Part shown: piece by piece, positions 7,290-43,422 of the stretch
Layout: every line of letters begins with the position of its first letter
How positions within the stretch are numbered: the first letter of the stretch is position 1
Assembly: GCF_009914755.1 (NCBI RefSeq)
Contig: NC_060939.1
Strand: one strand, 5' to 3'
Length of the DNA: 64,000 nt
Source of the DNA: the human T2T-CHM13v2.0 reference genome, Homo sapiens
Translations under genes and position numbers: made by a program
Notes under the pieces: model-generated
Databases searched by the model: none
Told to the model about the DNA's origin: nothing
What the model saw: the letters and a program-made list of their open reading frames with translations, nothing else

Positions 7290-9830
<2,541 letters not shown>

Positions 9831-12466: not shown

Positions 12467-12536
<70 letters not shown>

Positions 12537-14226: not shown

Positions 14227-14602
14227 GAGGGTTTGAGACAGAATGAGGAGTGACTAATGTCTACAGGGTTTTTCTCTGGTCGGGGGTGATAAGACGTTCT
14301 ACAATGGATTGCGAATTAAAATTGAATGTGCACAACCACAGGTATACTAAAAGCCACTCAATTCATGACTGTTAATGGGGGAATCTTATGTGGCGCAGTC
14401 TCATGGAGACCACGGCAGACATAGTGAGAGAGAAAAAGGTGAGTAAATATCTGAAACGGAGGCAGAAACAGAGAGAATGAAAAGCCCTGTGAATGGAAGG
14501 GAGAGCGAAAAGGGAAAATGGTCCCATTTACAAATGACAGATGTGAAACTGGGGTTCACATCAACAGTGTCACTGCCAGGAAGGAGGGTCATGCTAGCCA
14601 TG

Positions 14603-17440
14603 TCACCGGTGGTGTGGCCCGCAGGGACGCCGACCTGCTGGAGCGTCGTGCCAGCATGGGCTGTGGCATCCACGTGGGCCAGCAGGAGGTTCCCGCTGCA
14701 CAGCTGTGGGGTGAGGATAGACTGGTTGGTGATATCGGCCATTACAAGGGCCTCTTCTGCTGGCAAGAGTGTGACAGTAGCAAGTAGATGGACAGGCCTG
14801 CGTGTGAGGACGGAATGCAGGAGGGGTTCTTGTGCGGCTGTGTGTGGGGCCCTCACGGGAACCGTGGAGAAATGGCCAGGTAACTGCGTCATGTGGGCTA
14901 GTAGATTGGCCAGGGCTTCGAACTGAAGAACGATAACGGGGAGTAGCTGTCAGGCCCTGGGAGTGCCTGCGTGTAAGTGGAGATGGGTTTGGGGTCACTG
15001 AGGGATGCGTGGGAGCCATCTCTGTATAGGTACAGGTCATAGGGAGATAGTCTCGTGAGGCCTGTGAGTGTCTAGGGTTGTCCTGGGTGCCTGGGGCTGA
15101 CTGTGGCAGAAATCTGGGGAAGGCTGGAGAGAAGCTGGGAGACCCAGGAGAGTCCCTGAAGGCAGGGGGTGAAGAGGTGAAAGAAATGGGGGAGGGTTGC
15201 AGTAAGGTCCGTGAGTTTGTAGGTGATTCCTGGGTGCGGGAAGCTGACTCCAGGTGAAATCTGGAGATGGTTGGAGAGTAGCTGAGAGAGACAGAAGAGT
15301 CCCTGAGGGCTGGGGGTGAGAACATGAGGGAGACGGGGGAGTAAGTCAGTGAAATTCGTGAGTTCGGTGGTGTATCGTGGGTGCCTGGAACTGACTCCAG
15401 CTGGAATCTAGAGAAGTTTTGAGAGTAGCTGAAGGAGACACAAGAGTCCCTGTGGGCTGAGGGCAAAGACCTGAGAGAGACCAGGGAGGACCTCAGTGAA
15501 GTCTGTGAGTCTGTAGGTGATTCCGGAGTGTGGGAGGCTGACTCCCGCTGAAATCTGGGCGTGGTGGGAGAGTAGCTGGGACAGACAGGAGAGTCCCAGG
15601 GGGCTGGGGGTGAAGACATGAGAGAGACTGGGGAGTAACTCAGTGAAATTGCTGAGTTGGTTGGTGATACCTGGGTGCCTGGAACTGACCCCCGCTGAAA
15701 TCTGGGCATGGTTGGAGAGTAGCTGGGACACACAGGAGAGTCCCTGAGGGCTGTGGGTGAAGACATGAGAGAGACCGGGGAGTAACTGAGTGAAACTGGT
15801 GAGTTTCGTGGTGACTCCGGGGTGCCTGGAACCGACTCCCGCTGAAGTGTGGGCGTGGTTGGAGAGTAGCTGGGACACACAGGAGAGTCCCTGAGGGTTG
15901 GAGATAAAGACGTGCTAGAGACTGAGGAGTAACTGAGTGAAATTGGTGAGTTTGGTGGTGATTCCGGGGTGCCTGGAACGGACTCCAGCTTAAATGTGGG
16001 CGTAGTTGGAGAGTAGCTGGGACAGACAGGCGAGTCCCTGAGGGATGGTGAAGACATGAGAGAGACTGGGGAGTAACGCAGTGAAATTGGTGAGTTTGGT
16101 GGTGATTTCTGGGTGCCTGCAACGGACTCCCGCTGAAGTGTGGGCGTGTTTGGAGAGTAGCTGGGACAGACAGGCGAGTCCCTGAGAGTTAGAGATAAAG
16201 ACGTGCTGGAGACTGGGGAGTAACTCAGTGAAATTGGTGGGCTTGGCGGTGATCCCAGCGTTCCTAGAACAGACCCGCGCTGAAATGTGGGCGTGGTTGG
16301 AGAGTAGCTGGGACAGACTGGAGGGTCCGTAAGGGCTGGGGGTGAAGACGTGAGAGAGACTGGCGAGGATCTCACTGAGGTCTGTGAGTTTGTAGGTGTT
16401 TCTGGGGTGTGGGGTACAGACTCCCGCTGAAATCTGGGCGTAGTTGGAGAGTAGCTGGGACAGACAGGAGAGTCATGGGTGGCTGGGGGTGAGCTGCTGG
16501 ATGATGGCAGTAAGAACATATGGTACATTATTGATGAATGAGGTGACTGTGAAGAATCTCCAGAGGAGGACACGGGAGAACACAATGACATGAGTGACTG
16601 TCCTGCTTGGTTAGGAAAGGGAAACGTAAAGTTGTGGAATTCTGTTGATGATGGATGTGAGAGTGGTGAAGCCATGCGGGATGATGTAGAGGACTTCCAC
16701 ATCCCTGGTGAGGAGCTGCCCCTTGGGTCTGAGTTTCTGGGAGGGGAGAGGGAGACGCTGGGTGAGGCAGGCATGAATCTTGAGGAGTCAAGGCTGGGGG
16801 ACGGCTCATATTCTCCCGAGACCTGTGAGTCTCTGGGGGACTCCTGGGTGCATGGGACTGACTCCCGCAGGAACCTGGGGATGGCTGGAGGGTAACTGGG
16901 AGCCACAGGAGGGTCCCTGAGGCCTGGGGGTGAAGAGATGCAAGACACAGGGGTGGAGCAGCGTGAGGCTCGTGAGTTTGTAGGTGATTCCTGGGTGTGG
17001 GGGGCTGACTCCAGGTGAAATCTGAGGTTGTTTGGAGAGTAACTGGGAGACACAGGAGACCCCCCGAGAGCTGGGGGTGATCTGCTGGGTGATGGCATTA
17101 AGAACATGTGGTATATTATTGATGAACGTGGGGACTCTGAGGAATCCTCAGAGGAGGACACGGGAGAGCCCAATGGCTTCATTGATTGCCCATCACGGTG
17201 AGGACAGGGAAATGGGAGCTTGTGGGATTCTGGTGATGACAGAGGTGAGTGTGGTGAAGCCCTAGGGGCTGGTGAATGGCAGCTCCAGATCCCTGGTGAG
17301 GAGCTTCCCCTTAAGCCTGAGTTTCTGAGAGGGGAGAGGGAGAAGCTGGTTGAGGCTCGCATGGACCTTGGGGTGTCCGTGCTGGGGGACCGTTCATAAG
17401 AAGAGCCAGACAAGACCCTACTGTTCTTAGGTGCAGACAT
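14603..17440 (-). CDS. Putative 945-aa Ser/Pro/Thr-rich disordered protein with Pol II CTD-like heptads (copy 1, most diverged)
   Basis: Uninterrupted ATG-to-stop ORF; A at -3 (taatcATG); upstream TATA/Inr; 49-aa repeats. Confidence 0.5.
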   Translation of the reverse strand: MSAPKNSRVLSGSSYERSPSTDTPRSMRASTSFSLSPLRNSGLRGSSSPGIWSCHSPAPRASPHSPLSSPESHKLPFPCPHRDGQSMKPLGSPVSSSEDSSESPRSSIIYHMFLMPSPSRSPPALGGSPVSPSYSPNNLRFHLESAPHTQESPTNSRASRCSTPVSCISSPPGLRDPPVAPSYPPAIPRFLRESVPCTQESPRDSQVSGEYEPSPSLDSSRFMPASPSVSLSPPRNSDPRGSSSPGMWKSSTSSRMASPLSHPSSTEFHNFTFPFPNQAGQSLMSLCSPVSSSGDSSQSPHSSIMYHMFLLPSSSSSPPATHDSPVCPSYSPTTPRFQRESVPHTPETPTNSQTSVRSSPVSLTSSPPALTDPPVCPSYSPTTPTFQRGSVLGTLGSPPSPPISLSYSPVSSTSLSLTLRDSPVCPSYSPNTPTLQRESVAGTQKSPPNSPISLRYSPVSLMSSPSLRDSPVCPSYSPTTPTFKLESVPGTPESPPNSPISLSYSSVSSTSLSPTLRDSPVCPSYSPTTPTLQRESVPGTPESPRNSPVSLSYSPVSLMSSPTALRDSPVCPSYSPTMPRFQRGSVPGTQVSPTNSAISLSYSPVSLMSSPPAPWDSPVCPSYSPTTPRFQRESASHTPESPTDSQTSLRSSLVSLRSLPSAHRDSCVSFSYSQNFSRFQLESVPGTHDTPPNSRISLTYSPVSLMFSPPALRDSSVSLSYSPTISRFHLESASRTQESPTNSRTLLQPSPISFTSSPPAFRDSPGSPSFSPAFPRFLPQSAPGTQDNPRHSQASRDYLPMTCTYTEMAPTHPSVTPNPSPLTRRHSQGLTATPRYRSSVRSPGQSTSPHDAVTWPFLHGSREGPTHSRTRTPPAFRPHTQACPSTCYCHTLASRRGPCNGRYHQPVYPHPTAVQREPPAGPRGCHSPCWHDAPAGRRPCGPHHR
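15050..17400. repeat. 147/144-bp satellite (ACRO1-like) in unit 1; equivalent arrays lie within every unit's ORF
   Basis: ggagagtagctgggacagacaggagagtccctgaggg...gtgaagacatgagagagactggggagtaact recurs every 144-147 bp; 147 bp is the known ACRO1 monomer length. Confidence 0.8.
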
Positions 17441-17501
17441 GATTAGGAAACCTGCAGCTCCCAGGGGCCCCCACTAATGTTCTAACTTGCAGAAGGAAGG
17501 A

Positions 17502-17515
17502 GTGTGTGTGCGTGT

Positions 17516-17550
<35 letters not shown>

Positions 17551-17626
17551 CGGTGTGAGGTATGGGCCCCTTAAGGAAATGGAAATCAACCAACCAATGG
17601 GACAGACAGACAGACAGACAGACAGA
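17502..17626. repeat. (GT/GC)n dinucleotide and (GACA)n tetranucleotide repeats in the putative 5' leader (every unit, variable length)
   Basis: gtgtgtgtgcgtgtgtgcg... at ~17502-17550 and gacagacaga... at ~17601-17626. Confidence 0.9.
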
Positions 17627-17747
17627 GATTCACTTGCCCAAGTGTTCTGTCCTGTCCTCTGAATCCGCTTTCAAGTCGCAAGACGCTGTGAGCTCCAAGT
17701 CCACGCAGAGTCCGCCAAACGCTCCGGCCGCTGATCCGCTCCGCGAA

Positions 17748-17820
17748 GATCTGAGTACAGGCCAGCCAGGGTGGGTTTAAATAGCCTGGGGCGCAGCCTA
17801 GAAGCGGAAAGGGCGGAGCT
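17748..17820 (-). promoter_or_regulatory. Candidate Pol II core promoter: GC box, TATA (TATTTAAA) and Inr (TCAGATC)
   Basis: Plus strand gggcggag 17811-17818, tttaaata 17776-17783, gatctga 17748-17754; TATA start lies 31 nt upstream of the Inr A (17752); repeated in each unit. Confidence 0.6.
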
Positions 17821-18280
17821 TCACTCCTCCTTTCCATCATTCACCCCCAACTTTCCCAGGCTACACCTCGTAGGAAACTGTTCTCCTGCTTTGATTTCAT
17901 GCGCCACCTTTGGGACAATCTAAGAACTTACAGGTTTTCTTGGCCAGATTTATTAGGAATTGTATGCACTGAAACACTGAAAACCAACTAGTGGTTCTGT
18001 GCTTCCCACGTTGTGGTTTTGACACCAGCAGCATCCTTGCCACAATCAAACCCCGGAGATCCGCAGATCTGTGTTGTAACAAGACCTCCCCCTGACCCTG
18101 ATGCATGGCAGTTGAAGAAGTCTTTCCGTGTAAGCGAAAAGACTTTGAAGAAAAGGTGGAGATATGCGTTGTATAAACATTCTTTGGCTCTGGAACCACG
18201 TAGAGACTTGGGAGCCAGTTGGGTGGAGCATTCGTTGGATGAGGGTGCTCGGGTTAGGAATATCAAGGTGTTTCTCCAGA

Positions 18281-18291
18281 TAATCCAATCA
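18281..18291 (+). promoter_or_regulatory. DUX4/double-homeobox consensus site TAATCCAATCA
   Basis: Exact match to TAAYYYAATCA ~530 bp upstream of the predicted TSS; also at 24579, 31210, 37539, 44164, 50496, 57045 and 63641. Confidence 0.55.
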
Positions 18292-18384
18292 TCTAATTAA
18301 GATTCCAGTTATGCTCATCTGTTTTAAAATTCCGTTTGGGTAAATTCTTTTAGTCAGACTGAGAATGGCAAAGCCTCAACCCCA

Positions 18385-18830
18385 ATTTCCAGGGAGGGTG
18401 GAGAGCCTCAGGTGGAGTTGATCACCAATAGCCTAGGGTTTAACCCATCATGCCTATAGAATGAGGTCTCCATCAAAACCCAAAAGGACTGGGTTGAGAG
18501 AGCTTCTGGATAACACTTCCTGGAAGGTAGTGCACCCCTCCCCGCATGCCGGGCCCCACATTTATTTCTGAACCTTGTGCAATGTCCGCTAAAATACAAC
18601 GGCAAATGTAAGTGTTTCCCTGCGTGCTGTGAGCTCTTCCAGCAAATGAATGCAACTAAATCTGGGAGTGGTGGCAACCTGATTTATAGCCAGTTGCTGA
18701 GAAGCACAGGTAAAACAACGTAGGGCTTCCCATTGTTATTGGTGTGGGAGGCCTGTCTGGCGGGACTCGGCCCTTTGGAATCTAATGCTATGTCCCGGTA
18801 GATAGCGTCACCATTGAATTAGAAGACACA
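18385..18830. mobile_element. MER21-like LTR within the unit (repeated in each unit)
   Basis: ggtggagttgatcaccaatagcc...atcatgcctatagaatgaggtctccatcaaaacccaaaaggactgggtt[cg]agagagcttctggata. Confidence 0.7.
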
Positions 18831-18999
18831 CATATGTGGAGAATAATCTTTCTGGTCATTTACTGCATGTCATATTTACAATATGTAATCAAATTCTTTA
18901 TCCTGACCTTATGGCACCTGGGTTTAGGACCATGATTTGAACCAAACGTTGGTCTGTCACTTTCTGAGTTTGAAACTTTATTTTGCCTTTAGCGTTTTG

Positions 19000-19305
19000 C
19001 TATTGCTTTTTCGTTTTCTTTTGTTTCGTTTCGTTTCTAAGTTCTGGGGTATATGTGCAGGATGTGCAGATTTGTTACTAAGGTAAACGTGTGCCATGGT
19101 GGTTTGCTGCACCTGTCAACCCGTCACCTAGGTATTAAGCCCAGCATGCAGTAGCTGTTTTTCTTAACGCTCTGCCTCCCGAAAGGCCCCAGTGTGTGTT
19201 GTTCCCCTTCCTGTGTCCATGGGATCTCACTTTTCAGCTCCCATTATAAGTGAGAAGGTGGCGTTTGGTTTTCTTTCCCTGGATTAGTTTGCTGACGATA
19301 ATGAC
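19000..19305 (-). mobile_element. L1PA 3'-end fragment within the unit
   Basis: T-rich tail then aagttctggggtatatgtgcaggatgtgcag...ggtaaacgtgtgccatggtggtttgctgcacc...cctaggtattaagcccagcatgca. Confidence 0.88.
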
Positions 19306-19693
19306 CACACATCACCACTGTTTTTGTTTTTTAGTATAAAGAGTAGTATTTTATTGAATAAGATTTGCTCACAGAAAAATAAGCTTAAATCTACAATGAA
19401 TGCCAGACCCTACAGCAGAAAGCAATTTTCTCACTTTTCCACACACAATGGTTCCTACTAAGTGAAAAAAAAGCCATAAAATTTCATTCACAAATGTACT
19501 ACTCTGTCTCAAAACATCTCACGTAATCATGCACTGTACTAAAGCCATCAGATCAGTTCTTCAGTCAGGTTAAAGAAGTATCCCTCTAATAACTGACTTT
19601 TATAATGTTATCAATATCCACTCCCAATCAGTCTGCCATTGTTAGTGGTGTACAGCATTACTGAATACAACGGAATTGATGACGCCCATATCC

Positions 19694-19829
19694 ACAGACA
19701 AACCGTGACTTATGATGGTTTGATTTATGATTTTTCAACGTTATGATGGGTTTATTGGAATATTAGATTCGTTTCTGAGTTACACTGGGTTTATGAGTAT
19801 GCGACCCTACACTCCAGAAACAGCTGTAT
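19694..19829. mobile_element. Tigger5/MER47-like DNA transposon remnant within the unit
   Basis: cagac...gacttatgatggtttgatttatgatttttcaacgttatgatgggtttat...cagctgta resembles the CpG-decayed MER47 terminal motif gacttacgatggttcgacttacgatttttcgac. Confidence 0.55.
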
Positions 19830-20049
19830 AAGGAAAAACAGGAGTACCTAATAAAAATATGCTTAGTGACTTGGGATAAAGCAATAGATGTTCACAAGTG
19901 ATGGAGAGCCGTGAAAGAGAGATAGCGGTAAATAGTTACAATAACACAATTTTCCTGCACCTGTCGAGGATTTCCCCCAAAAAACGCAGAATGTGGGATG
20001 CACCTAAGGCATATGAAAGAGAGAGGGCAGAAGGAGTAAGAGAGAAATA

Positions 20050-20152
20050 GGAGGAAGGAAGGAAGGAAGCAAGGAAGACAGGAAGGAAGGAAAGAAGGAA
20101 GGTAGGACGGAAGGAAGGAAGGAAGGAAGGAAAGAAGGATGAAAGGAAGGAG
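20050..20152. repeat. (GGAA)n purine microsatellite (each unit, variable length)
   Basis: ggaaggaagg... also at ~26350-26490, 32980-33118, 39308-39447, 45933-46072, 52248-52332 and 58814-58928. Confidence 0.95.
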
Positions 20153-20209
20153 AAAACACCGGTGTTACTAAAACCCCCCAAAAAATGGTTTCCCCCTGTG
20201 GGTAAGCCT

Positions 20210-20545
20210 ACAATGTGGATGAATCTTGAAAATATTGTGCTACGTGTTATGTCAGTCATAGCAGCTCACCTATTGTGCAATTCCGTTTATAGGAAATGTC
20301 CACAATATGGAAATCTATGCATATGGGATTGATCGCACTAGGTAGTTGCTACCTAGGGCTGAGGGTCAGGGAGAGGGTTTGAGACAGAATGAGGAGTGAC
20401 TAATGTCTACAGGGTCTTTCTCTGGTCGGGGGTGATAAGACGTTTTACAATGGATTGCGAATTAAAATTGAATGTGCACAACCACAGGTATACTAAAAGC
20501 CACTCAATTCATGACCTTTAATGGGGGAATCTTACGTGGCGTAGT
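20210..20545 (+). mobile_element. Old L1M 3'UTR fragment within the unit
   Basis: tggatgaatcttgaaaatattgtgcta...tattgtgcaattccgtttataggaaatgtcca...gttgctacctagggctgaggg...tgcacaac...atactaaaagccact. Confidence 0.75.
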
Positions 20546-20748
20546 CTCATGGAGACCACGGCAGACATAGTGAGAGAGAAAAAGGTGAGTAAATATCTGA
20601 AACGGAGGCAGAAACAGAGAGAATGAAAAGCCCTGTGAATGGAAGGGAGAGCGAAAAGGGAAAATGGTCCTATTTACAAATGACAGATGTGAAACTGGGG
20701 TTCACATCAACAGTGTCACTGCCAGGAAGGAGGGTCATGCTAGCCATG

Positions 20749-23730
20749 TCACCGGTAGTGTGGCCCGCAGGGACGCCGACCTGCTGGAGCGTCGTGCCAG
20801 CATGGGCTGTGGCAACCACGTGGGCCAGCAGGAGGTTCCCGCTGCACAGCTGTGGGGTGAGGATAGACTGGGTGGTGATATCGGCCATTACAGGGGCCTC
20901 TTCTGCTGGCAAGAGTGTGACAGTAGCAAGTAGATGGACAGGCCTGCGTGTGAGGACGGAATGCAGGAGGGGTTCTTGTGCGCCTGGGTGTGGGGCCCTC
21001 ACGGGAACCGTGGAGAAATGGCCAGGTAACTGCGTCATGTGGGCTAGTAGATTGGCCAGGGCTTCGAACTGAAGGACGATAATGGGGAGTAGCTGTCAGG
21101 CCCTGGGAGTGCCTGAGTGTAAGTGGAGATGGGTTTGGGGTCACTGAGGGATGCGTGGGAGCCATCCCTGTATAGGTACAGGTCATAGGGAGATAGTCTC
21201 GTGAGGCCTGTGAGTGTCTAGGGTTGTCCTGGGTGCCTGGGGCTGACTGTGGCAGAAATCTGGGGAAGGCTGGAGAGAAGCTGGGAGACCCAGGAGAGTC
21301 CCTGAAGGCAGGGGGTGAAGAGGTGAAAGAAATGGGGGAGGGTTGCAGTAAGGTCCGTGAGTTTGTAGGTGATTCCTGGGTGCGGGAAGCTGACTCCAGG
21401 TGAAATCTGGAGATGGTTGGAGAGTAGCTGAGAGAGACAGAAGAGTCCCTGAGGGCTGGGGGTGAGAACATGAGGGAGACGGGGGAGTAAGTCAGTGAAA
21501 TTCGTGAGTTCGGTGGTGTATCGTGGGTGCCTGGAACTGACTCCAGCTGGAATCTAGAGAAGTTTTGAGAGTAGCTGAAGGAGACACAAGAGTCCCTGTG
21601 GGCTGAGGGCAAAGACCTGAGAGAGACCAGGGAGGACCTCAGTGAAGTCTGTGAGTCTGTAGGTGATTCCGGAGTGTGGGAGGCTGACTCCCGCTGAAAT
21701 CTGGGCGTGGTGGGAGAGTAGCTGGGACAGACAGGAGAGTCCCAGGGGGCTGGGGGTGAAGACATGAGAGAGACTGGGGAGTAACTCAGTGAAATTGCTG
21801 AGTTGGTTGGTGATACCTGGGTGCCTGGAACTGACCCCCGCTGAAATCTGGGCATAGTTGGAGAGTAGCTGGGACACACAGGAGAGTCCCTGAGGGCTGG
21901 GGGTGAAGACATGAGCGAGACCGGGGAGTAACTGAGTGAAACGGGTGAGTTTGGTGGTGACTCCGGGGTGCCTGGAACTGACTCCAGCTGAAATGTGGGC
22001 GTGGTTGGAGAGTAGCTGGGACAGACAGGAGAGTCCCTGAGGACTGGTGAAGACATGAGAGAGAGTGGAGAGTAATTGAGTGAAATTGGTGAGTTTAGTG
22101 GTGATTCCTGGGTGCCTGGAACTGACTCCCGCTGAAGTGTGGGCGTGGTTGGAGAGTAGCTGGGACACACAGGAGAGTCCCTGAGGGTTGGAGATAAAGA
22201 CGTGCTAGAGACTGAGGAGTAACTGAGTGAAATTGGTGAGTTTGGTGGTGATTCCGGGGTGCCTGGAACGGACTCCAGCTGAAATGTGGGCGTGGTTGGA
22301 GAGTAGCTGGGACAGACGGGAGAGTCCCTGAGGGATGGTGAAGACATGAGAGAGACTGGGGAGTAACGCAGTGAAATTGGTGAGTTTGGTGGTGATTTCT
22401 GGGTGCCTGCAACGGACTCCCGCTGAAGTGTGGGCGTGCTTGGAGAGTAGCTGGGACAGACAGGCGAGTCCCTGAGGGTTGGAGATAAAGACGTGCTGGA
22501 GACTGGGGAGTAACTCAGTGAAAGTGGTGGGCTTGGTGGTGATCCCAGGGTTCCTGGAACTGACCCGCGCTGAAATGTGGGCGTGGTTGGAGAGTAGCTG
22601 GGACAGACTGGAGGGTCCGTAAGGGCTGGGGGTGAAGACGTGAGAGAGACTGGCGAGGATCTCACTGAGGTCTGTGAGTTTGTAGGTGTTTCTGGGGTGT
22701 GGGGTACAGACTCCCGCTGAAATCTGGGCGTAGTTGGAGAGTAGCTGGGACAGACAGGAGAGTCATGGGTGGCTGGGGGTGAGCTGCTGGATGATGGCAG
22801 TAAGAACATATGGTACATTATTGATGAATGAGGTGACTGTGAAGAATCTCCAGAGGAGGACACGGGAGAACACAATGACATGAGTGACTGTCCTGCTTGG
22901 TTAGGAAAGGGAAACGTAAAGTTGTGGAATTCTGTTGATGATGGATGTGAGAGTGGTGAAGCCCTGCGGGATGATGTAGAGGACTTCCACATCCCTGGTG
23001 AGGAGCTGCCCCTTGGGTCTGAGTTTCTGGGAGGGGAGAGGGAGAAGCTGGGTGAGGCAGGCATGAATCTTGAGGAGTCAGGGCTGGGGGACCGCTCATA
23101 TTCTCCCGAGACCTGTGAGTCTCTGGGGGACTCCTGGGTGCATGGGGCTGACTCCCGCAGGAACCTGGGGATGGCTGGAGAGTAACTGGGAGCCACAGGA
23201 GGGTCCCTGAGGCCTGGGGGTGAAGAGATGCAAGACACAGGGGTGGAGCAGCGTGAGGCTCGTGAGTTTGTAGGTGATTCCTGGGTGTGGGGGGCTGACT
23301 CCAGCTGAAATCTGGGGTTGTTTGGAGAGTAGCTGGGAGACACAGGAGACCCCCCGAGAGCTGGGGGTGAGCTGCTGGGTGATGGCAGTAAGAACATGTG
23401 GTATATTATTGATGAACGTGGGGACTCTGAGGAGTCCTCAGAGGAGGACACGGCAGAGCCCAATGGCTTCATTGATTGCCCATCACGGTGAGGACAGGGA
23501 AATGGGAGCTTGTGGGATTCTGGTGATGACAGAGGTGAGTGTGGTGAAGCCCTAGGGGATGGTGAATGGTAGTTCCGGATCCCTGGTGAGGAGCTTCCCC
23601 TTAAGCCTGAGTTTCTGAGAGGGGAGAGGGAGAAGCTGGGTGAGGCTCGCATGGACCTTGGGGTGTCCGTGCTGGGGGACCGTTCATAAGAAGAGCCAGA
23701 CAAGACCCTACTGTTCTTAGTTGCAGACAT
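20749..23730 (-). CDS. Putative 993-aa CTD-like heptad-repeat protein (copy 2)
   Basis: Intact ORF, same architecture; about 17 YSP motifs. Confidence 0.55.
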   Translation of the reverse strand: MSATKNSRVLSGSSYERSPSTDTPRSMRASPSFSLSPLRNSGLRGSSSPGIRNYHSPSPRASPHSPLSSPESHKLPFPCPHRDGQSMKPLGSAVSSSEDSSESPRSSIIYHMFLLPSPSSSPPALGGSPVSPSYSPNNPRFQLESAPHTQESPTNSRASRCSTPVSCISSPPGLRDPPVAPSYSPAIPRFLRESAPCTQESPRDSQVSGEYERSPSPDSSRFMPASPSFSLSPPRNSDPRGSSSPGMWKSSTSSRRASPLSHPSSTEFHNFTFPFPNQAGQSLMSLCSPVSSSGDSSQSPHSSIMYHMFLLPSSSSSPPATHDSPVCPSYSPTTPRFQRESVPHTPETPTNSQTSVRSSPVSLTSSPPALTDPPVCPSYSPTTPTFQRGSVPGTLGSPPSPPLSLSYSPVSSTSLSPTLRDSPVCPSYSPSTPTLQRESVAGTQKSPPNSPISLRYSPVSLMSSPSLRDSPVCPSYSPTTPTFQLESVPGTPESPPNSPISLSYSSVSSTSLSPTLRDSPVCPSYSPTTPTLQRESVPGTQESPLNSPISLNYSPLSLMSSPVLRDSPVCPSYSPTTPTFQLESVPGTPESPPNSPVSLSYSPVSLMSSPPALRDSPVCPSYSPTMPRFQRGSVPGTQVSPTNSAISLSYSPVSLMSSPPAPWDSPVCPSYSPTTPRFQRESASHTPESPTDSQTSLRSSLVSLRSLPSAHRDSCVSFSYSQNFSRFQLESVPGTHDTPPNSRISLTYSPVSLMFSPPALRDSSVSLSYSPTISRFHLESASRTQESPTNSRTLLQPSPISFTSSPPAFRDSPGSPSFSPAFPRFLPQSAPGTQDNPRHSQASRDYLPMTCTYTGMAPTHPSVTPNPSPLTLRHSQGLTATPHYRPSVRSPGQSTSPHDAVTWPFLHGSREGPTPRRTRTPPAFRPHTQACPSTCYCHTLASRRGPCNGRYHHPVYPHPTAVQREPPAGPRGCHSPCWHDAPAGRRPCGPHYR

Positions 23731-23805
23731 GATTAGGAAACCTGCAGCTCCCAGGGGCCCCCACTAATGTTCTAACTCGAAGAAGGAAGGAGTGTGTGTG
23801 CGTGT

Positions 23806-23837
<32 letters not shown>

Positions 23838-26800
23838 TTGTGTGTGTGCGGTGTGAGGTATGGGCCCCTTAAGGAAATGGAAATCAACCAACCAATGGGA
23901 CAGACAGACAGACAGACAGACAGAGATTCACTTGCCCAAGTGTTCTGTCCTGTCCTCTGAATCCGCTTCCAAGTCGCAAGACGCTGTGAGCTCCAAGTCC
24001 ACGCAGAGTCCGCCAAACGCTGCGGCCGCTGATCCGCTCCGCCAAGATCTGAGTACAGGCCAGCCAGGGTGGGTTTAAATAGCCTCGGGCGCAGCCTAGC
24101 AGCGGAAAGGGCGGAGCTTCACTCCTCCTTTCCATCAGTCACCCCCAACTTTCCCAGGCTACACCTCGTAGGAAACTGTTCTCCTGCTTTGATTTCATGC
24201 GCCACCTTTGGGACAATCTAAGAACTTACAGGTTTTCTTGGCCAGATTTATTAGGAATTGTATGCACTGAAACACTGAAAACCAACTAGTGGTTCTGTGC
24301 TTCCCACGTTGTGGTTTTGACACCAGCAGCATCCTTGCCACAATCAAACCCCGGAGATCCGCAGATCTGTGTTGTAACAAGACCTCCCCCTGACCCTGAA
24401 GCGTGGCAGTTGAAGAAGTCTTTCCGTGTACGCGAAAAGACTTTGAAGAAAAGGTGGAGATATGCGTTGTATAAACATTCTTTTGCTCTGGAACCACGTA
24501 GAGACTTGGGAGCCAGTTGGGTGGAGCATTCGTTGGATGAGGGTGCTCGGGTTAGGAATATCAAGGTGTTTCTCCAGATAATCCAATCATCTAATTAAGA
24601 TTCCAGTTATGCTCATCTGTTTTAAAATTCCGTTTGGGTAAATTCTTTTAGTCAGACTGAGAATGGCAAAGCCTCAACCCCAATTTCCAGGGAGGGTGGA
24701 GAGCCTCAGGTGGAGTTGATCACCAATAGCCTATGGTTTAACCCATCATGCCTATAGAATGAGGTCTCCATCAAAACCCAAAAGGACTGGGTTCAGAGAG
24801 CTTCTGGATAACACTTCCTGGAAGGTAGTGCGCCCCTCCCCGCATGGCGGGCCCCACATTTATTTCTGAACTTTGTGCAATGTCCGCTAAAATACAACGG
24901 CAAATGTAAGTGTTTCCCTGCGTGCTGTGAGCTCTTCCAGCAAATGAATGCAACTAAATCTGGGAGTGGTGGCAACCTGATTTATAGCCAGTTGCTGAGA
25001 AGCACAGGTAAAACAACGTAGGGCTTCCCATTGTTATTGGTGTGGGAGGCCTGTCTGGCGGGACTCGGCCCTTTGGAATCTAATGCTATGTCCCGGTAGA
25101 TAGCGTCACCATTGAATTAGAAGACACACATATGTGGAGAATAATCTTTCTGGTCATTTAGTGCATGTCATATTTACAATATGTAATCAAATTCTTTATC
25201 CTGACCTCATGGCACCTGGGTTTAGGACCATGATTTGAACCAAACGTTGGTCTGTCACTTTCTGAGTTTGAAACTTTATTTTGCCTTTAGCGTTTTGCTA
25301 TTGCTTTTTCGTTTTCTTTTGTTTCGTTTCGTTTCTAAGTTCTGGGGTATATGTGCAGGATGTGCAGATTTGTTACTAAGGTAAACGTGTGCCATTTTTG
25401 TTTGCTGCACCTGTCAACCCGTCACCTAGGTATTAAGCCCAGCATGCAGTAGCTGTTTTTCTTAACGCTCTGCCTCCCGAAAGGCCCCAGTGTGTGTTGT
25501 TCCCCTTCCTGTGTCCATGGGATCTCACTTTTCAGCTCCCATTATAAGTGAGAAGGTGGCGTTTGGTTTTCTTTCCCTGGATTAGTTTGCTGACGATAAT
25601 GACCACACATCACCACTGTTTTTGTTTTTTAGTATAAAGAGTAGTATTTTATTGAATAAGATTTGCTCACAGAAAAATAAGTTTAAATCTACAATGAATG
25701 CCAGACCCTACAGCAGAAAGCAATTTTCTCACTTTTCCACACACAATGGTTCCTACTAAGTGAAAAAAAAGCCATAAAATTTCATTCACAAATGTACTAC
25801 TCTGTCTCAAAACATCTCACGTAATCATGCACTGTACTAAAGCCATCAGATCAGTTCTTCAGTCAGGTTAAAGAAGTATCCCTCTAATAACTGACTCTTA
25901 TAATGCTATCAATATGCACTCCCAATCAGTCTGCCATTGTTAATGGTGTACAGCATTACTGAATACAACGGAATTGATGACGCCCATATCCACAGACAAA
26001 CCGTGACTTATGATGGTTTGATTTATGATTTTTCAACGTTATGATGGGTTTATTGGAATATTAGATTCGTTTCTGAGTTACACTGGGTTTATGAGTATGC
26101 GACCCTACACTCCAGAAACAGCTGTATAAGGAAAAACAGGTGTACCTAATAAAAATATGCTTAGTGACTTGGGATAAACCAATAGATGTTCACAAGTGAT
26201 GGAGAGCCGTGAAAGAGAGATAGCGGTAAATAGTTACAATAACACAATTTTCCTGCACCTGTCGAGGATTTCCCCCAAAAAACGCAGAATGTGGGATGCA
26301 CCTAAGGCATATGAAAGACAGAGGGCAGAAGGAGTAAGAGAGAAATAGGAGGAAGGAAGGAAGGAAGCAAGGAAGAAAGGAAGGAAGGAAAGAAGGAAGG
26401 TAGGACGGACGGAAGGAAGGAAGGAAGGAAGGAAGGAAGGAAGGAAAGAAGGAAGGAAGGAAGGAAGGAAAGAAGGATGAAAGGAAGGAGAAAACACCGG
26501 TGTTACTAAAACCCCCCAAAAAATGGTTTCCCCCTGTGGGTAAGCCTACAATGTGGATGAATCTTGAAAATATTGTGCTACGTGTTATGTCAGTCATAGC
26601 AGCTCACCTATTGTGCAATTCCGTTTATAGGAAATGTCCACAATATGGAAATCTATGCATATGGGATTGATCGCACTAGGTAGTTGCTACCTAGGGCTGA
26701 GGGTCAGGGAGAGGGTTTGAGACAGAATGAGGAGTGACTAATGTCTACAGGGTCTTTCTCTGGTCGGGGGTGATAAGACGTTTTACAATGGATTGCGAAT

Positions 26801-27086
26801 TAAAATTGAATGTGCACAACCACAGGTATACTAAAAGCCACTCAATTCATGACCTTTAATGGGGGAATCTTACGTGGCGTAGTCTCATGGAGACCACGGC
26901 AGACATAGTGAGAGAGAAAAAGGTGAGTAAATATCTGAAACGGAGGCAGAAACAGAGAGAATGAAAAGCCCTGTGAATGGAAGGGAGAGCGAAAAGGGAA
27001 AATGGTCCTATTTACAAATGACAGATGTGAAACTGGGGTTCACATCAACAGTGTCACTGCCAGGAAGGAGGGTCATGCTAGCCATG

Positions 27087-30000
27087 TCACCGGTAGTGTG
27101 GCCCGCAGGGACGCCGACCTGCTGGAGCGTCGTGCCAGCATGGGCTGTGGCAACCACGTGGGCCAGCAGGAGGTTCCCGCTGCACAGCTGTGGGGTGAGG
27201 ATAGACTGGGTGGTGATATCGGCCATTACAGGGGCCTCTTCTGCTGGCAAGAGTGTGACAGTAGCAAGTAGATGGACAGGCCTGCGTGTGAGGACGGAAT
27301 GCAGGAGGGGTTCTTGTGCGCCTGGGTGTGGGGCCCTCACGGGAACCGTGGAGAAATGGCCAGGTAACTGCGTCATGTGGGCTAGTAGATTGGCCAGGGC
27401 TTCGAACTGAAGGACGATAATGGGGAGTAGCTGTCAGGCCCTGGGAGTGCCTGAGTGTAAGTGGAGATGGGTTTGGGGTCACTGAGGGATGCGTGGGAGC
27501 CATCCCTGTATAGGTACAGGTCATAGGGAGATAGTCTCGTGAGGCCTGTGAGTGTCTAGGGTTGTCCTGGGTGCCTGGGGCTGACTGTGGCAGAAATCTG
27601 GGGAAGGCTGGAGAGAAGCTGGGAGACCCAGGAGAGTCCCTGAAGGCAGGGGGTGAAGAGGTGAAAGAAATGGGGGAGGGTTGCAGTAAGGTCCGTGAGT
27701 TTGTAGGTGATTCCTGGGTGCGGGAAGCTGACTCCAGGTGAAATCTGGAGATGGTTGGAGAGTAGCTGAGAGAGACAGAAGAGTCCCTGAGGGCTGGGGG
27801 TGAGAACATGAGGGAGACGGGGGAGTAAGTCAGTGAAATTCGTGAGTTCGGTGGTGTATCGTGGGTGCCTGGAACTGACTCCAGCTGGAATCTAGAGAAG
27901 TTTTGAGAGTAGCTGAAGGAGACACAAGAGTCCCTGTGGGCTGAGGGCAAAGACCTGAGAGAGACCAGGGAGGACCTCAGTGAAGTCTGTGAGTCTGTAG
28001 GTGATTCCGGAGTGTGGGAGGCTGACTCCCGCTGAAATCTGGGCGTGGTGGGAGAGTAGCTGGGACAGACAGGAGAGTCCCAGGGGGCTGGGGGTGAAGA
28101 CATGAGAGAGACTGGGGAGTAACTCAGTGAAATTGCTGAGTTGGTTGGTGATACCTGGGTGCCTGGAACTGACCCCCGCTGAAATCTGGGCATAGTTGGA
28201 GAGTAGCTGGGACACACAGGAGAGTCCCTGAGGGCTGGGGGTGAAGACATGAGCGAGACCGGGGAGTAACTGAGTGAAACTGGTGAGTTTGGTGGTGACT
28301 CCGGGGTGCCTGGAACTGACTCCAGCTGAAATGTGGGCGTGGTTGGAGAGTAGCTGGGACAGACAGGAGAGTCCCTGAGGACTGGTGAAGACATGAGAGA
28401 GAGTGGAGAGTAATTGAGTGAAATTGGTGAGTTTAGTGGTGATTCCTGGGTGCCTGGAACTGACTCCCGCTGAAGTGTGGGCGTGGTTGGAGAGTAGCTG
28501 GGACACACAGGAGAGTCCCTGAGGGTTGGAGATAAAGACGTGCTAGAGACTGAGGAGTAACTGAGTGAAATTGGTGAGTTTGGTGGTGATTCCGGGGTGC
28601 CTGGAACGGACTCCAGCTGAAATGTGGGCGTGGTTGGAGAGTAGCTGGGACAGACGGGAGAGTCCCTGAGGGATGGTGAAGACATGAGAGAGACTGGGGA
28701 GTAACGCAGTGAAATTGGTGAGTTTGGTGGTGATTTCTGGGTGCCTGCAACGGACTCCCGCTGAAGTGTGGGCGTGCTTGGAGAGTAGCTGGGACAGACA
28801 GGCGAGTCCCTGAGGGTTGGAGATAAAGACGTGCTAGAGACTGAGGAGTAACTGAGTGAAATTGGTGAGTTTGGTGGTGATTCCGGGGTGCCTGGAACGG
28901 ACTCCAGCTGAAATGTGGGCGTGGTTGGAGAGTAGCTGGGACAGACGGGAGAGTCCCTGAGGGATGGTGAAGACATGAGAGAGACTGGGGAGTAACGCAG
29001 TGAAATTGGTGAGTTTGGTGGTGATTTCTGGGTGCCTGCAACGGACTCCCGCTGAAGTGTGGGCGTGCTTGGAGAGTAGCTGGGACAGACAGGCGAGTCC
29101 CTGAGGGTTGGAGATAAATACGTGCTGGAGACTGGGGAGTAACTCAGTGAAAGTGGTGGGCTTGGTGGTGATCCCAGGGTTCCTGGAACTGACCCGCGCT
29201 GAAATGTGGGCGTGGTTGGAGAGTAGCTGGGACAGACTGGAGGGTCCGTAAGGGCTGGGGGTGAAGACGTGAGAGAGACTGGCGAGGATCTCACTGAGGT
29301 CTGTGAGTTTGTAGGTGTTTCTGGGGTGTGGGGTACAGACTCCCGCTGAAATCTGGGCGTAGTTGGAGAGTAGCTGGGACAGACAGGAGAGTCATGGGTG
29401 GCTGGGGGTGAGCTGCTGGATGATGGCAGTAAGAACATATGGTACATTATTGATGAATGAGGTGACTGTGAAGAATCTCCAGATGAGGACACGGGAGAAC
29501 ACAATGACATGAGTGACTGTCCTGCTTGGTTAGGAAAGGGAAACGTAAAGTTGTGGAATTCTGTTGATGATGGATGTGAGAGTGGTGAAGCCCTGCGGGA
29601 TGATGTAGAGGACTTCCACATCCCTGGTGAGGAGCTGCCCCTTGGGTCTGAGTTTCTGGGAGGGGAGAGGGAGAAGCTGGGTGAGGCAGGCATGAATCTT
29701 GAGGAGTCAGGGCTGGGGGACCGCTCATATTCTCCCGAGACCTGTGAGTCTCTGGTGGACTCCTGGGTGCATGGGGCTGGCTCCCGCAGGAACCTGGGGA
29801 TGGCTGGAGAGTAACTGGGAGCCACAGGAGGGTCCCTGAGGCCTGGGGGTGAAGAGATGCAAGACACAGGGGTGGAGCAGCGTGAGGCTCGTGAGTTTGT
29901 AGGTGATTCCTGGGTGTGGGGGGCTGACTCCAGCTGAAATCTGGGGTTGTTTGGAGAGTAGCTGGGAGACACAGGAGACCCCCCGAGAGCTGGGGGTGAG

Positions 30001-30359: not shown

Positions 30360-30434
30360 GATTAGGAAACCTGCAGCTCCCAGGGGCCCCTACTAATGTT
30401 CTAACTCGCAGAAGGAAGGAGTGTGTGTGCGTGT

Positions 30435-30467
<33 letters not shown>

Positions 30468-43315: not shown

Positions 43316-43390
43316 GATTAGGAAACCTGCAGCTCCCAGGGGCCCCCACTAATGTTCTAACTCGAAGAAGGAAGGAGTGTGTGTGCGTGT

Positions 43391-43422
<32 letters not shown>

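What the first reader, a model, noticed from the sequence alone, without database searches (positions are those of the whole stretch)
21550..22790. The 147-bp monomer encodes exactly seven RNA Pol II CTD-like heptads (7 x 21 bp)
Seen: the 49-aa repeat parses as GTPESPP | NSPISLS | YSPVSLM | SSPPALR | DSPVCPS | YSPTTPT | FQLESVP. Six of seven heptads have [S/T]P at positions 2-3, two start with Y, and YSPTTPT differs from the CTD consensus YSPTSPS only by S>T at positions 5 and 7. The DNA reads CCC AGC TAC TCT CCA ACC ACG CCC. Established: the RPB1 (POLR2A) CTD is built of YSPTSPS heptads phosphorylated by CDK7, CDK9 and CDK12/13, bound by PIN1, CID-domain proteins and CTD phosphatases, and it partitions into condensates. 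Inference: the satellite may derive from, or converge on, CTD-coding DNA, and the protein could act as a free CTD mimic or decoy that modulates transcription.
Basis: partly seen in the sequence, partly recalled or inferred. Interest (0 to 1): 0.92.

Follow-up and report, generated by a model that had tools for sequence, protein, structure and literature searches.

The report
ACRO1 satellite with CTD-like heptads
The 147-base repeat is the known human ACRO1 satellite, whose resemblance to the tail of RNA polymerase II is real but already published, and it sits inside a long, oddly well-kept open reading frame that also exists in marmoset and whales.

Summary
The 147-bp unit is the ACRO1 satellite, the core of the 6.1-6.6 kb ACRO/ACRE macrosatellite of acrocentric short arms. 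Its 7x21-bp substructure is real: lag 21 is the top circular autocorrelation (0 of 5000 shuffles). Its minus-strand translation matches (YSPTSPS)x7 at 22-23 of 49 (0 of 20000 shuffles), and 13 of 14 PDB hits are RPB1 tails. Boots et al. 2020 (PMC7714431) printed the same 23/49, proposed descent from CTD mRNA, and showed that the RNA binds Pol II and blocks elongation in cis.

The decoy-protein reading is unsupported:
- No Pfam CTD hit.
- At least seven other human loci resemble a CTD more.
- DNA-level likeness to POLR2A is marginal (p about 0.03).
- pN/pS is about 1.

New here: ACRO1 is the repeat core of one ATG-to-TGA frame of 896-1237 codons per unit. Its unique ends are homologous to predicted proteins of marmoset and baleen whales. 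The whale proteins lack heptad periodicity; marmoset keeps a weaker one. ORF blocks carry 0 indels against 23 in adjacent spacer (p=6e-8), yet 5 of 16 units are broken. CTD-likeness looks late and convergent. Coding status stays open.

The parts
21227..22782 (-). ACRO1 147-bp array of unit 1 (10.6 monomers; 147- and 144-bp variants in 291/438-bp higher-order periods). It contains the finding's interval 21550-22790.
   Evidence: TRF; monomer dissection of the sister unit; translation
20749..23730 (-). Open reading frame of unit 1: ATG at 23730-23728, TGA at 20751-20749, 993 codons. An in-frame TAG lies 11 codons upstream of the ATG. The layout is an N-terminal part with two copies of a ...FPFP..GQS..SSI(I/M)YHMF... 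block, then the ACRO1 array, then older diverged monomers, then a unique C-terminal part with CPSTCYCH.
23112..23379 (-). Short two-monomer ACRO1-like block inside the N-terminal part (approximate ends). It corresponds to the '256 bp array' of Boots et al.
   Evidence: 49-aa spacing of anchors at residues 141 and 190; paper passage
24579..24589 (+). TAATCCAATCA, a match to the DUX4 site consensus TAAYBBAATCA (consensus recalled, not from a call). It occurs once per unit, about 850 bp 5' of the ATG on the ORF strand.
   Evidence: 8 matches, one in each of 8 units, 0.38 expected in the whole window. The copies are not independent.
20052..20151 (+). (AGGA)n microsatellite about 600 bp 3' of the ORF stop; its length varies between units
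   Evidence: indels in this tract
23792..23848 (+). (GT)n/(GTGTGTGC)n tract just 5' of the ORF
14603..17440 (-). ORF of unit 0 (945 codons, intact), the most diverged unit of the window (98.4% identical to unit 1)
27087..30359 (-). ORF of unit 2 (1090 codons, intact; 12.6-monomer array)
33714..36695 (-). ORF of unit 3 (993 codons, intact)
40043..43315 (-). ORF of unit 4 (1090 codons, intact)
46668..49649 (-). ORF of unit 5 (993 codons, intact)
52930..56202 (-). ORF of unit 6 (1090 codons, with one premature stop at codon 1048)
59526..62798 (-). ORF of unit 7 (1090 codons, intact)
14600..64000 (.). ACRO/ACRE macrosatellite array: 8 units spaced 6118-6627 bp. 10.6- and 12.6-monomer units mostly alternate (the first unit has 9.4 monomers and the last two both have 12.6). 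The array runs off the window's end.
   Evidence: array starts 15109, 21227, 27565, 34192, 40521, 47146, 53408, 60004

Best explanation
The 147-bp monomer is the human ACRO1 satellite. It was built from seven diverged copies of an ancestral 21-bp unit, whose consensus TACTCACCAGTCTCACTCACA reads YSPVSLT. It forms the central tandem-repeat core of the 6.1-6.6 kb ACRO ('ACRE') macrosatellite of acrocentric short arms.

The Pol II CTD likeness of its C-rich strand is real, moderate (22-24 of 49) and already published. It most likely arose by convergence. A Ser-Pro-rich heptad-periodic repeat expanded and homogenised, in the primate lineage, inside an older mammalian S/P-rich open reading frame. 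Descent from POLR2A is the less likely route.

What the element is shown to do is at the DNA/RNA level, and this comes from papers, not from my calls. It is transcribed under DUX4 and at the 4-cell stage. RNA of the ACRO1 sense strand binds Pol II and aborts elongation in cis. I infer that this is the ORF strand, because that is the strand whose translation the authors compare with the CTD.

Each unit also keeps one ATG-to-TGA frame of about 900-1240 codons. The frame, but not the residues, is conserved. Whether it is translated is open. A free CTD decoy is the least supported step.
For: Identity as ACRO1/ACRE:
- 147-bp monomer, arrays of 1.38-1.85 kb plus a two-monomer block, in 6.1-6.6 kb units. 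This matches the description in PMC7714431 and PMC12767296.
- Copies lie on chr13, 14, 15, 21 and 22, plus chr2, 3 and 4.

Sub-period and CTD likeness:
- See for the autocorrelation and shuffle tests.
- phmmer against the PDB gives 13 of 14 hits as RPB1 tails, E 5e-9 to 4e-4.
- Among 1.84 billion representative proteins there are 50 hits. One of these, scanned with Pfam, is an RPB1; the 20 or so whose sequences I read are ACRO-like frames.

The frame is older than the CTD-like repeat:
- Marmoset P0054 (832 aa) shares the MSA.. start and the CPSTCYCH end.
- Rice's whale P0055, gray whale P0057, and unnamed records P0058 and P0024 share the N- and/or C-terminal unique parts.
- Local alignment z-scores are 13.0, 6.3, 6.9 and 13.0, with 0 of 1000 shuffles each.
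- Only the human frame hits the human CTD (E 1.3e-12). [S/T]P pairs fall at multiples of 7 in 0.364 of cases in human (shuffles 0.144), 0.294 in marmoset, 0.13 in whales, and 0.19-0.25 in P0058/P0024. The gray whale protein has no PDB hit at E<=1.

Likeness is not unique to this locus: loci on chr16, 10, 7, 11, 15 (20.44 Mb), 14 and 17 (77.6 Mb) score better against a canonical CTD than ACRO does (E 7e-27 to 9e-19 against 6e-12, 26 of 23400 candidates scored).

RNA-level activity and expression: PMC7714431 (passages), PMC6545021, PMC8990217 and PMC12776069.
Against: - The DNA-level match to POLR2A CTD exons is slightly above controls: 83 of 147, against 76.7 +/- 3.0 with the ORF's own codon usage (30 of 1000 reach it), and 0 of 1000 with uniform codons. 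Old descent from CTD-coding DNA is therefore not excluded.
- YSP/SYSP motifs also occur in the whale proteins (7-8 each), so part of the motif may be ancestral.
- The strand of the embryonic and DUX4-induced transcripts was not stated in the passages I read.
- I could not match the monomer to the Dfam/Repbase ACRO1 model, because no such library is held. Identity rests on the published description.
- The frame-preservation signal (0 indels in ORF blocks against 23 in spacer) argues that more than a satellite RNA is at stake.
Confidence: 0.72

Rival explanations
1. The ACRO unit is a protein-coding macrosatellite. The about 1000-codon frame is translated, most plausibly when DUX4 opens it at the cleavage stage or in the germ line. 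The product would be a disordered Ser/Pro-rich protein with about 100 [S/T]P sites. Selection would keep the frame and composition at the level of the gene family, not of single residues or single copies. Its function need not involve the Pol II tail.
For: - In an unbiased sample of 17 units (8 from the window, 9 contiguous on chr4), the non-array ORF blocks have 209 unique substitutions and 0 indels. Adjacent spacer blocks have 185 substitutions and 23 indels (Fisher p = 6e-8). Homopolymer content is alike.
- 15 of 16 complete units have an ATG-to-TGA length divisible by 3, and 11 of 16 have no internal stop.
- The same ATG and the same TGA are used on chr3, 4, 13, 15, 21 and 22.
- Frame 0 has more single-step routes to a stop than the other two frames (377 against 252 and 271), yet has 0 stops against 14 and 17.
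- Homologous long frames with the same start occur in marmoset and whales.
- One DUX4-like site lies 5' of each ORF.
- DUX4-induced and 4-cell-stage RNA is reported in print.
Against: - pN/pS is 0.77-1.12 in the ORF frame, the same as in off-frames.
- Synonymous changes are not enriched: 45 seen against 54.5 expected.
- Nonsense variants are only mildly depleted: 5 against 10.4 expected.
- 5 of 16 units are broken, and the solitary copies on chr2 and at chr21:5.61 Mb are decayed.
- No RefSeq gene is annotated here (hub table).
- Boots et al. found no stable ACRO1 transcript in HeLa, and found that 1.1-1.4 kb of ACRO1 nearly abolishes a reporter RNA.
- The whale and marmoset proteins are automatic models whose exon structure I could not see.
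- Indel paucity could instead reflect a DNA-length constraint or low indel mutability.
Confidence: 0.3
2. One reading: the translated repeat acts as a free CTD mimic or decoy. It would be phosphorylated by CDK7/9/12 and would titrate PIN1, CID proteins, SSU72 and condensates.
For: - CTD likeness is above shuffles, and RPB1 gives the only significant PDB matches.
- There are 17 YSP motifs and 100 [S/T]P sites per 1004-aa frame.
- The frame is preserved.
- The RNA of the same strand is a Pol II binder in print, so a link to Pol II exists at some level.
Against: - This reading needs the previous rival to be true first.
- There is no Pfam PF05001 match at E<=10, while a true RPB1 scores 146.6 bits.
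- Only one heptad per monomer reaches 5 of 7. Ser5 is Cys or Thr, and Ser7 is Thr, in the best pair (DSPVCPS YSPTTPT).
- Other human loci are more CTD-like.
- CTD likeness is undetectable by phmmer in every non-human homologue, so it is not the conserved feature of the family.
- There is no residue-level constraint on the heptads: pN/pS is 0.83 among monomers, and second codon positions change most (54/78/66).
Confidence: 0.06
3. There is no function in the frame at all. An open frame is a by-product of a stop-free 21-bp founder amplified in multiples of three. The arrays are young copies of one lucky open founder. Homologous 'proteins' elsewhere are annotation artefacts of the same kind of repeat.
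For: - All three ORF-strand frames of the consensus monomer are nearly stop-free (0, 1, 0 stops).
- Within the array the lack of frame-0 stops is only mildly unexpected (0 against 3.06, P = 0.029).
- Units within an array are near identical, so their openness is not independent.
- ACRO1 frames are annotated as 'proteins' in a Plasmodium ovale assembly (P0064, P0009). Such spurious proteins from human repeats are documented (PMC6581058).
- pN/pS is about 1.
Against: - The frame also runs through about 500 codons of non-array sequence that has 8 and 15 off-frame stops.
- The indel contrast with the spacer is p = 6e-8.
- The chr4 and chr15 families differ by about 2.7% yet share start, stop and frame.
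- Uninterrupted frames of 540-633 aa with homologous unique ends occur in distant mammals.
Confidence: 0.25

Closest known systems
ACRO1 satellite / ACRE (ACRO composite) as described by Boots et al. 2020 (PMC7714431) and in PMC12767296
   Same: 147-bp monomer; 1.3-2.4 kb arrays plus a short array in a unit of about 6 kb; acrocentric short arms plus chr4 and others; in-silico translation 23 of 49 identical to the CTD with heptad periodicity; derivation from CTD mRNA already proposed.
   Different: None of the 38 ACRO1-holding papers in the held library has a title or abstract opening about these points, and the passages I read in ten of them do not mention them:
- the unit-long ATG-to-TGA frame;
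- its lack of indels;
- its homologues outside primates. Both papers call ACRO primate-specific.
C-terminal domain of RPB1 (POLR2A), Pfam PF05001
   Same: Ser-Pro-rich heptad periodicity; YSP at heptad positions 1-3 in two of seven heptads; significant phmmer similarity.
   Different: No Pfam match. 22-24 of 49 identity only. Ser5/Ser7 are replaced. A 49-aa super-period contains non-CTD heptads (FQRESVP, GTQESPP). It is not attached to a polymerase. The unique N- and C-termini are unrelated to RPB1.
Protein-coding macrosatellites such as D4Z4 with DUX4 (comparison from general knowledge)
   Same: One long frame per kilobase-scale tandem unit; location on or near acrocentric and subtelomeric heterochromatin; expression tied to the cleavage-stage DUX4 programme (papers). 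A gray whale gene model joins the ACRO-like frame to a DUX-family C-terminal domain.
   Different: DUX4 has folded domains under clear constraint and a proven protein. Here the product would be fully disordered, pN/pS is about 1, and no protein is known.
Pol II-binding RNA aptamers (RAPs) of Boots et al.
   Same: Same element; C/A-rich strand (ORF strand: C 39.6%, A 20.8%).
   Different: That mechanism needs no translation. It was shown with yeast Pol II and reporters, not at the native locus.

Membership tests
ACRO1 satellite / ACRO (ACRE) composite | 147-bp monomer in tandem arrays of 1.3-2.4 kb, plus a short array, inside a higher-order unit of about 6 kb | tested here: met
   eight arrays of 1.38-1.85 kb with period 147, and unit spacing of 6118-6627 bp; a separate two-monomer block.
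ACRO1 satellite / ACRO (ACRE) composite | Location on acrocentric short arms, with further copies on chr4 and a few other chromosomes | tested here: met
   The hub table places the window at chr15:1.86 Mb. Searches find copies on chr13, 14, 15, 21, 22, 3, 4 and 2.
ACRO1 satellite / ACRO (ACRE) composite | Translation of the consensus is 23 of 49 identical to the CTD heptad array | tested here: met
ACRO1 satellite / ACRO (ACRE) composite | Sequence match to the Dfam/Repbase ACRO1 model and to GenBank KF726396 | not testable with these tools
   No repeat library or GenBank record is held. Identity rests on the published description.
ACRO1 satellite / ACRO (ACRE) composite | The spacer is made of L1PA10, MER21B and L1MB8 fragments | tested here: inconclusive
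   A Pfam scan of 47 spacer frames of 40 aa or more found no reverse-transcriptase or other retroelement domain. No repeat masker is available.
RPB1 C-terminal repeat (Pfam PF05001) | Match to the Pfam model above its cut-off (20.3 bits) | tested here: not met
   no PF05001 match at E<=10 for the 1004-aa frame. The control RPB1 P0049 scores 146.6 bits.
RPB1 C-terminal repeat (Pfam PF05001) | Tandem heptads close to YSPTSPS | tested here: inconclusive
   22-24 of 49 identical; one heptad per monomer reaches 5 of 7; significant against shuffles and by phmmer; weaker than several other human S/P-rich loci.
RPB1 C-terminal repeat (Pfam PF05001) | Descent from POLR2A CTD-coding DNA | tested here: inconclusive
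   83 of 147 nt identical in frame; 30 of 1000 codon-usage-matched controls reach this; third positions match at 20 of 49.
RPB1 C-terminal repeat (Pfam PF05001) | Phosphorylation by CDK7/9/12 and binding by CTD readers | not testable with these tools
   Needs bench assays.
Protein-coding macrosatellite | One complete frame per unit, kept between array families | tested here: met
   11 of 16 complete units are intact, and 15 of 16 are in phase; the same ATG and TGA are used on six chromosomes; 0 indels against 23.
Protein-coding macrosatellite | Purifying selection on residues | tested here: not met
   pN/pS is 0.77, 0.83, 1.12 and 0.96 in the frame, against 0.65-1.54 off-frame. Synonymous changes: 45 against 54.5 expected.
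Protein-coding macrosatellite | Transcript of the ORF strand and a detected protein | not testable with these tools
   Papers report ACRO1 RNA, without strand in the passages read. No protein report was found.

The most novel reading that the evidence does not exclude
The ACRO macrosatellite is the amplified primate copy of an old, fast-evolving mammalian gene. The gene has an MSA... start, a ...SIMYHMF... block, an S/P-rich repeat core and a CPSxCYC tail. Its frame is kept by selection, and it is switched on by DUX4 at genome activation. In apes its repeat core was remodelled into a heptad-periodic, CTD-like array, so hundreds of copies could deliver a burst of a proline-directed-kinase substrate, or Pol II-tail look-alike, in the 4-cell embryo. 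The whale gene model that runs from this frame into a DUX C-terminal exon hints that the gene and DUXC were neighbours in the ancestral macrosatellite.
Probability: 0.2. Interest if true: 0.85.

Novelty: already known. Interest (0 to 1): 0.45.

Why it matters
As given, the finding rediscovers a published curiosity of the ACRO1 satellite, so by itself it adds little.

What could matter is the layer underneath. ACRO is the repeat most tightly tied to great-ape acrocentric short arms, apart from rDNA. It is transcribed at human genome activation and has been called primate-specific and non-coding. Three results question both labels:
- it carries one frame-preserved open reading frame of about 1000 codons per unit;
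- the frame has homologues in marmoset, whales and two further unnamed records;
- one whale gene model links the frame to a DUX-family exon.

These results give a concrete, testable candidate for a second protein-coding macrosatellite in the DUX4 programme. They also explain why automatic pipelines label such frames 'RPB1', including in a contaminated Plasmodium assembly.

Tried and rejected
1. Homeobox relic. One spacer frame (window 24347-24586, minus strand) gave a weak Homeodomain match (E 0.052, 13.8 bits, cut-off 22.9), and 20 of 20 PDB hits were homeodomains at E 0.17-1.5. Reading through its upstream TGA as X did not improve the match. BLASTP against a human DUX4-like frame found nothing (E 0.92). 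After 47 frames tested this is chance level, so I rejected it.

2. DUX C-terminal remnant in the human unit. tblastn with the whale C-terminal parts hit only low-complexity ORF sequence. Rejected.

3. First indel and stop tests on 18 loci. I picked these loci from protein-level hit lists, which favour unbroken frames. I therefore treat their p-values (stops P 0.001; indels 3e-6) as biased, and rely on the contiguous window-plus-chr4 sample.

4. The protein-atlas search on P0058: no usable hit.

5. Pfam on marmoset, whale, P0058, P0024, P0002, P0021 and P0035: no family.

6. Literature search with five mixed terms was badly framed and returned nothing on ACRO1.

9. No structure or complex prediction was run. 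The frame is predicted by composition to be disordered, and a fold would not bear on the question.


Full report
**What is there**

Tandem Repeats Finder shows eight arrays of a 147-bp unit in the window. Each has 9.4-12.6 copies at 79-81% matches, with extra periods of 291 and 438-441 bp. Their starts are spaced 6118-6627 bp apart. The finding lies in the second array, 21227-22782. On the minus strand every unit has a stop-to-stop frame of 956-1101 codons.

It differs at 3 of 49 positions from the consensus I built from 11 distinct monomers of one unit: GTQESPP NSPISLS YSPVSLT SSPPALR DSPVCPS YSPTTPT FQRESVP. Three of 12 monomers are 144 bp.

**Is it more than chance?**

Yes.
- On the consensus monomer, circular lag 21 gives the most matches of all 73 lags (66 of 147; mean 41.8, sd 8.3).
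- The sum over lags 21, 42 and 63 is 186, against 125.6 +/- 8.8 for base shuffles and 127.5 +/- 8.7 for codon shuffles (0 of 5000 each). No other period from 15 to 27 exceeds 144.
- The seven 21-mers give the consensus TACTCACCAGTCTCACTCACA, which reads YSPVSLT.
- Identity to (YSPTSPS)x7 is 22-23 of 49. Residue shuffles give 12.8 +/- 1.4 (0 of 20000). The other five frames give 2-11.
- If heptad columns are permuted while periodicity is kept, 84 of 5040 orders reach the observed value.
- phmmer of the array translation against all PDB chains returns 14 sequences at E<=10. Thirteen are RPB1, matched through their tails (E 5e-9 to 4.3e-4). The fourteenth has E 0.73.
- Pfam gives no RPB1-repeat match at E<=10, whereas a true RPB1 scores 146.6 bits on that model.

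**It is already known**

Boots et al. 2020 (PMC7714431; abstract and passages read) describe ACRO1 as follows.
- It has a 147-bp unit in 1.3-2.4 kb and 256-bp arrays within a 6-kb 'ACRE'.
- Its in-silico translation is identical to the CTD at 23 of 49 residues and reflects the heptad repeat.
- It may derive from Pol II CTD mRNA.
- ACRO1 RNA was among the most enriched binders of yeast Pol II in genomic SELEX (1029 sense against 1 antisense mappings).
- 1.1-1.4 kb of ACRO1, but not its reverse complement, nearly abolishes a reporter RNA co-transcriptionally.
- No stable transcript was seen in HeLa.

A 2025 preprint (PMC12767296; passages) calls ACRO a 6-kb composite of ACRO1, L1PA10, MER21B and L1MB8. 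It describes ACRO as primate-specific, H1.0-enriched and expressed at the 4-cell stage, and it mentions no ORF in it. Other papers report a 4-cell peak (PMC6545021) and DUX4-induced ACRO1 transcripts (PMC8990217, PMC12776069).

The window fits this description feature by feature. I could not match it to the Dfam model, because none is held.

**Does the likeness mean descent from POLR2A?**

I located POLR2A in the window's own genome with an RPB1 found and fetched its CTD region.
- The best in-frame ungapped match of the ACRO1 consensus is 83 of 147 bases (35/28/20 by codon position). It includes 22 identical residues, 12 of them with identical codons.
- Synonymous randomisation with uniform codons gives 72.3 +/- 2.9 (0 of 1000 reach 83).
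- With the ORF's own codon usage it gives 76.7 +/- 3.0 (30 of 1000 reach 83). That is marginal.
- In the genome search, loci on chr16, 10, 7, 11, 15 (20.44 Mb), 14 and 17 (77.6 Mb) matched the canonical tail better (E 7e-27 to 9e-19) than an ACRO unit on chr21 did (6e-12). Only 26 of 23400 candidates were scored.

CTD-likeness at this level is therefore common among natural Ser/Pro-rich repeats.

**The frame around the repeat**

Each unit has an ATG (unit 1: 23730-23728) 11 codons after an in-frame TAG, and a TGA at 20751-20749. The frame runs through the array and also through about 330 N-terminal and 170 C-terminal codons that are not part of the TRF array.

In unit 1 the frame has 0 stops, while the other two frames of that strand have 14 and 17. 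It has more single-step routes to a stop than they do (377 against 252 and 271).

**Relatives of the frame**

A scan of 1.84 billion representative proteins gave 50 hits. Those I inspected are ACRO-like frames, apart from one RPB1.

Word-indexed searches with source names added:
- a marmoset protein of 832 aa (P0054, named 'RPB1' by its source);
- a Rice's whale protein of 633 aa (P0055, also named 'RPB1');
- a gray whale hypothetical protein of 598 aa (P0057);
- two unnamed records (P0058 of 540 aa; P0024 of 575 aa).

Human, marmoset and whales share the start MSA... They also share a block ...FPFP..GQS..SS(L)SP(GF)SI(M)YHMF..PALRDSP..SYSP. Human, marmoset, P0058 and P0024 share a tail ...CPS(T/S)CYCH..RR....

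BLASTP gives 3e-40 (human against P0024) and 3e-20 (human against whale). Local alignments of the unique ends alone score z = 13.0, 6.3, 6.9 and 13.0 above composition-preserving shuffles, with 0 of 1000 each.

So the frame is not primate-specific, although the 147-bp satellite may be.

CTD-likeness fades with distance.
- Only the human frame hits the human CTD by phmmer (E 1.3e-12).
- The share of [S/T]P pairs spaced at multiples of 7 is 0.364 in human (shuffles 0.144 +/- 0.037), 0.294 in marmoset, 0.13 in both whales, 0.19 in P0058 and 0.25 in P0024.
- The gray whale protein has no PDB hit at E<=1.

The simplest reading is that an older S/P-rich frame acquired its heptad-periodic, CTD-like core late, by expansion of a 21-bp-based monomer.

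**Is the frame under selection?**

Residues are not.
- pN/pS is 0.77 between units 0 and 1 (off-frames 1.54 and 0.65; differences 13/15/19 by codon position).
- It is 0.83 among monomers (off-frames 1.14 and 0.79; 54/78/66).
- It is 1.12 and 0.96 in the N- and C-terminal blocks of copies from eight chromosomes.

For stops and indels, my first sample of 18 loci was drawn from protein-hit lists and is biased towards intact frames. I therefore used two contiguous stretches: the window (8 units) and chr4:49.24-49.29 Mb (9 units).
- The ORF blocks (990 + 870 bp) carry 209 unique substitutions and 0 indels.
- The adjacent spacer blocks (899 + 801 bp) carry 185 substitutions and 23 indels (Fisher p = 6e-8).
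- In the earlier 18-locus alignment of the same blocks, 6 of 17 flank indels lay in a (TCCT)n tract, and homopolymer content was similar in ORF and flank blocks.
- Nonsense variants are about half of expectation: 2 against 6.2 and 3 against 4.2, with P 0.039 and 0.38. Off-frames show 12 against 12.7.
- Synonymous changes are not enriched: 45 against 54.5.
- Of 16 complete units, 15 have an ATG-to-TGA length divisible by 3, and 11 have no internal stop. The window has 7 of 8 intact and chr4 has 4 of 8. One chr4 unit has a frameshift inside the array.
- Solitary copies on chr2 (4 TGA) and at chr21:5.61 Mb (7 stops, five indels) are decayed.

In short, the frame is kept between array families, residues drift freely, and single units decay. 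I cannot separate three explanations:
- family-level selection for a translated disordered protein;
- a DNA-length or phase constraint (147 bp is the nucleosome core length);
- lower indel mutability of this sequence.

**Surroundings**

- Each unit has one TAATCCAATCA about 850 bp 5' of the ATG (8 of 8 units; 0.38 expected in the window). It fits the DUX4 site consensus as I recall it. The copies are not independent.
- The first AATAAA on the ORF strand after the stop lies about 1 kb downstream, at 19756-19751.
- The RefSeq lncRNA that spans the window is on the other strand and has no exon here (hub table).
- The gray whale model ends in a stretch that matches 148 places in the human genome, on acrocentric arms, chr1, chr10 and elsewhere. 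At one of these places the neighbouring frame has two homeodomains (sequence). The whale model therefore joins the ACRO-like frame to a DUX-family C-terminal exon. Whether that reflects true adjacency or a chimeric model cannot be settled without whale DNA.

**Verdict**

The element is ACRO1.

The CTD resemblance is best explained as convergence within a late-expanded repeat core. Descent from POLR2A is not excluded.

The decoy-protein idea needs translation, for which there is no evidence, and the published cis-silencing by the same RNA strand argues against efficient expression.

The unplanned result is that ACRO carries a unit-long, frame-preserved ORF with non-primate homologues. It is worth a direct test.

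Noticed in passing
window 9830-10135, 10555-10933, 11214-14227: Just before the first ACRO unit lie an interstitial telomere-like (CCCTAA)n tract, GC-rich 29/46/59-bp tandem repeats, and 193-227-bp tandem repeats with a 339-codon open minus-strand frame (12674-13690). This looks like a subtelomere-type junction at the array's edge.
   Followed up: no
window 24579-24589 and the same place in all 8 units: There is one exact TAATCCAATCA per unit, 5' of the ORF. It fits the DUX4 site consensus as I recall it, and fits the published DUX4 induction of ACRO1 RNA.
   Followed up: partly
P0057 (gray whale), residues about 515-598; L064 (chr13:9.63 Mb): The gray whale gene model joins the ACRO-like S/P-rich frame to a DUX-family C-terminal domain. 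That end matches 148 D4Z4-like places in the human genome. The frame next to one of them has two homeodomains.
   Followed up: partly
P0064, P0009: Two 'proteins' of a Plasmodium ovale wallikeri assembly are 79-88% identical to the human ACRO frame. One is named PIR superfamily or hypothetical, the other 'RPB1, partial'. Almost certainly they are human DNA in the assembly.
   Followed up: no
G000 chr16:95.73 Mb, chr7:107.95 Mb, chr15:20.44 Mb, chr10:132.69 Mb, chr11:65.83 Mb, chr14:99.92 Mb, chr17:77.60 Mb: Other human loci with long open frames (225-983 aa) resemble a canonical Pol II tail more than ACRO does. I did not identify them.
   Followed up: no
G000 chr4:49.237-49.292 Mb (L043-L047, L061-L063): The chr4 ACRO array is an inverted pair of blocks: four units on the minus strand, then five on the plus strand. 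The junction lies near 49,260,354-49,262,061, where a truncated 3' flank meets a 5' flank. Half of its complete units carry a stop or frameshift.
   Followed up: partly
G000 chr3:95,379,288; chr13:4,987,095; chr15:1,547,831; chr21:1,967,017; chr22:3,516,609: Identical-scoring DUX-like C-terminal matches, each with a 385-aa open frame, lie 0.31-0.38 Mb before the ACRO arrays on five chromosomes. This suggests one shared duplicated block.
   Followed up: no
window 24347-24586 (-): A frame reads ...LEKHLDIPNPSTLIQRMLHPTGSQVSTWFQSKRM..., weakly homeodomain-like (13.8 bits, below the cut-off). I judged it to be chance after multiple testing, and it shows no similarity to DUX4-like sequence.
   Followed up: yes
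window 20052-20151 and sister sites: The (AGGA)n tract 3' of each ORF varies from 21 to 35 repeats between units and is the main source of indels in the spacer.
   Followed up: partly
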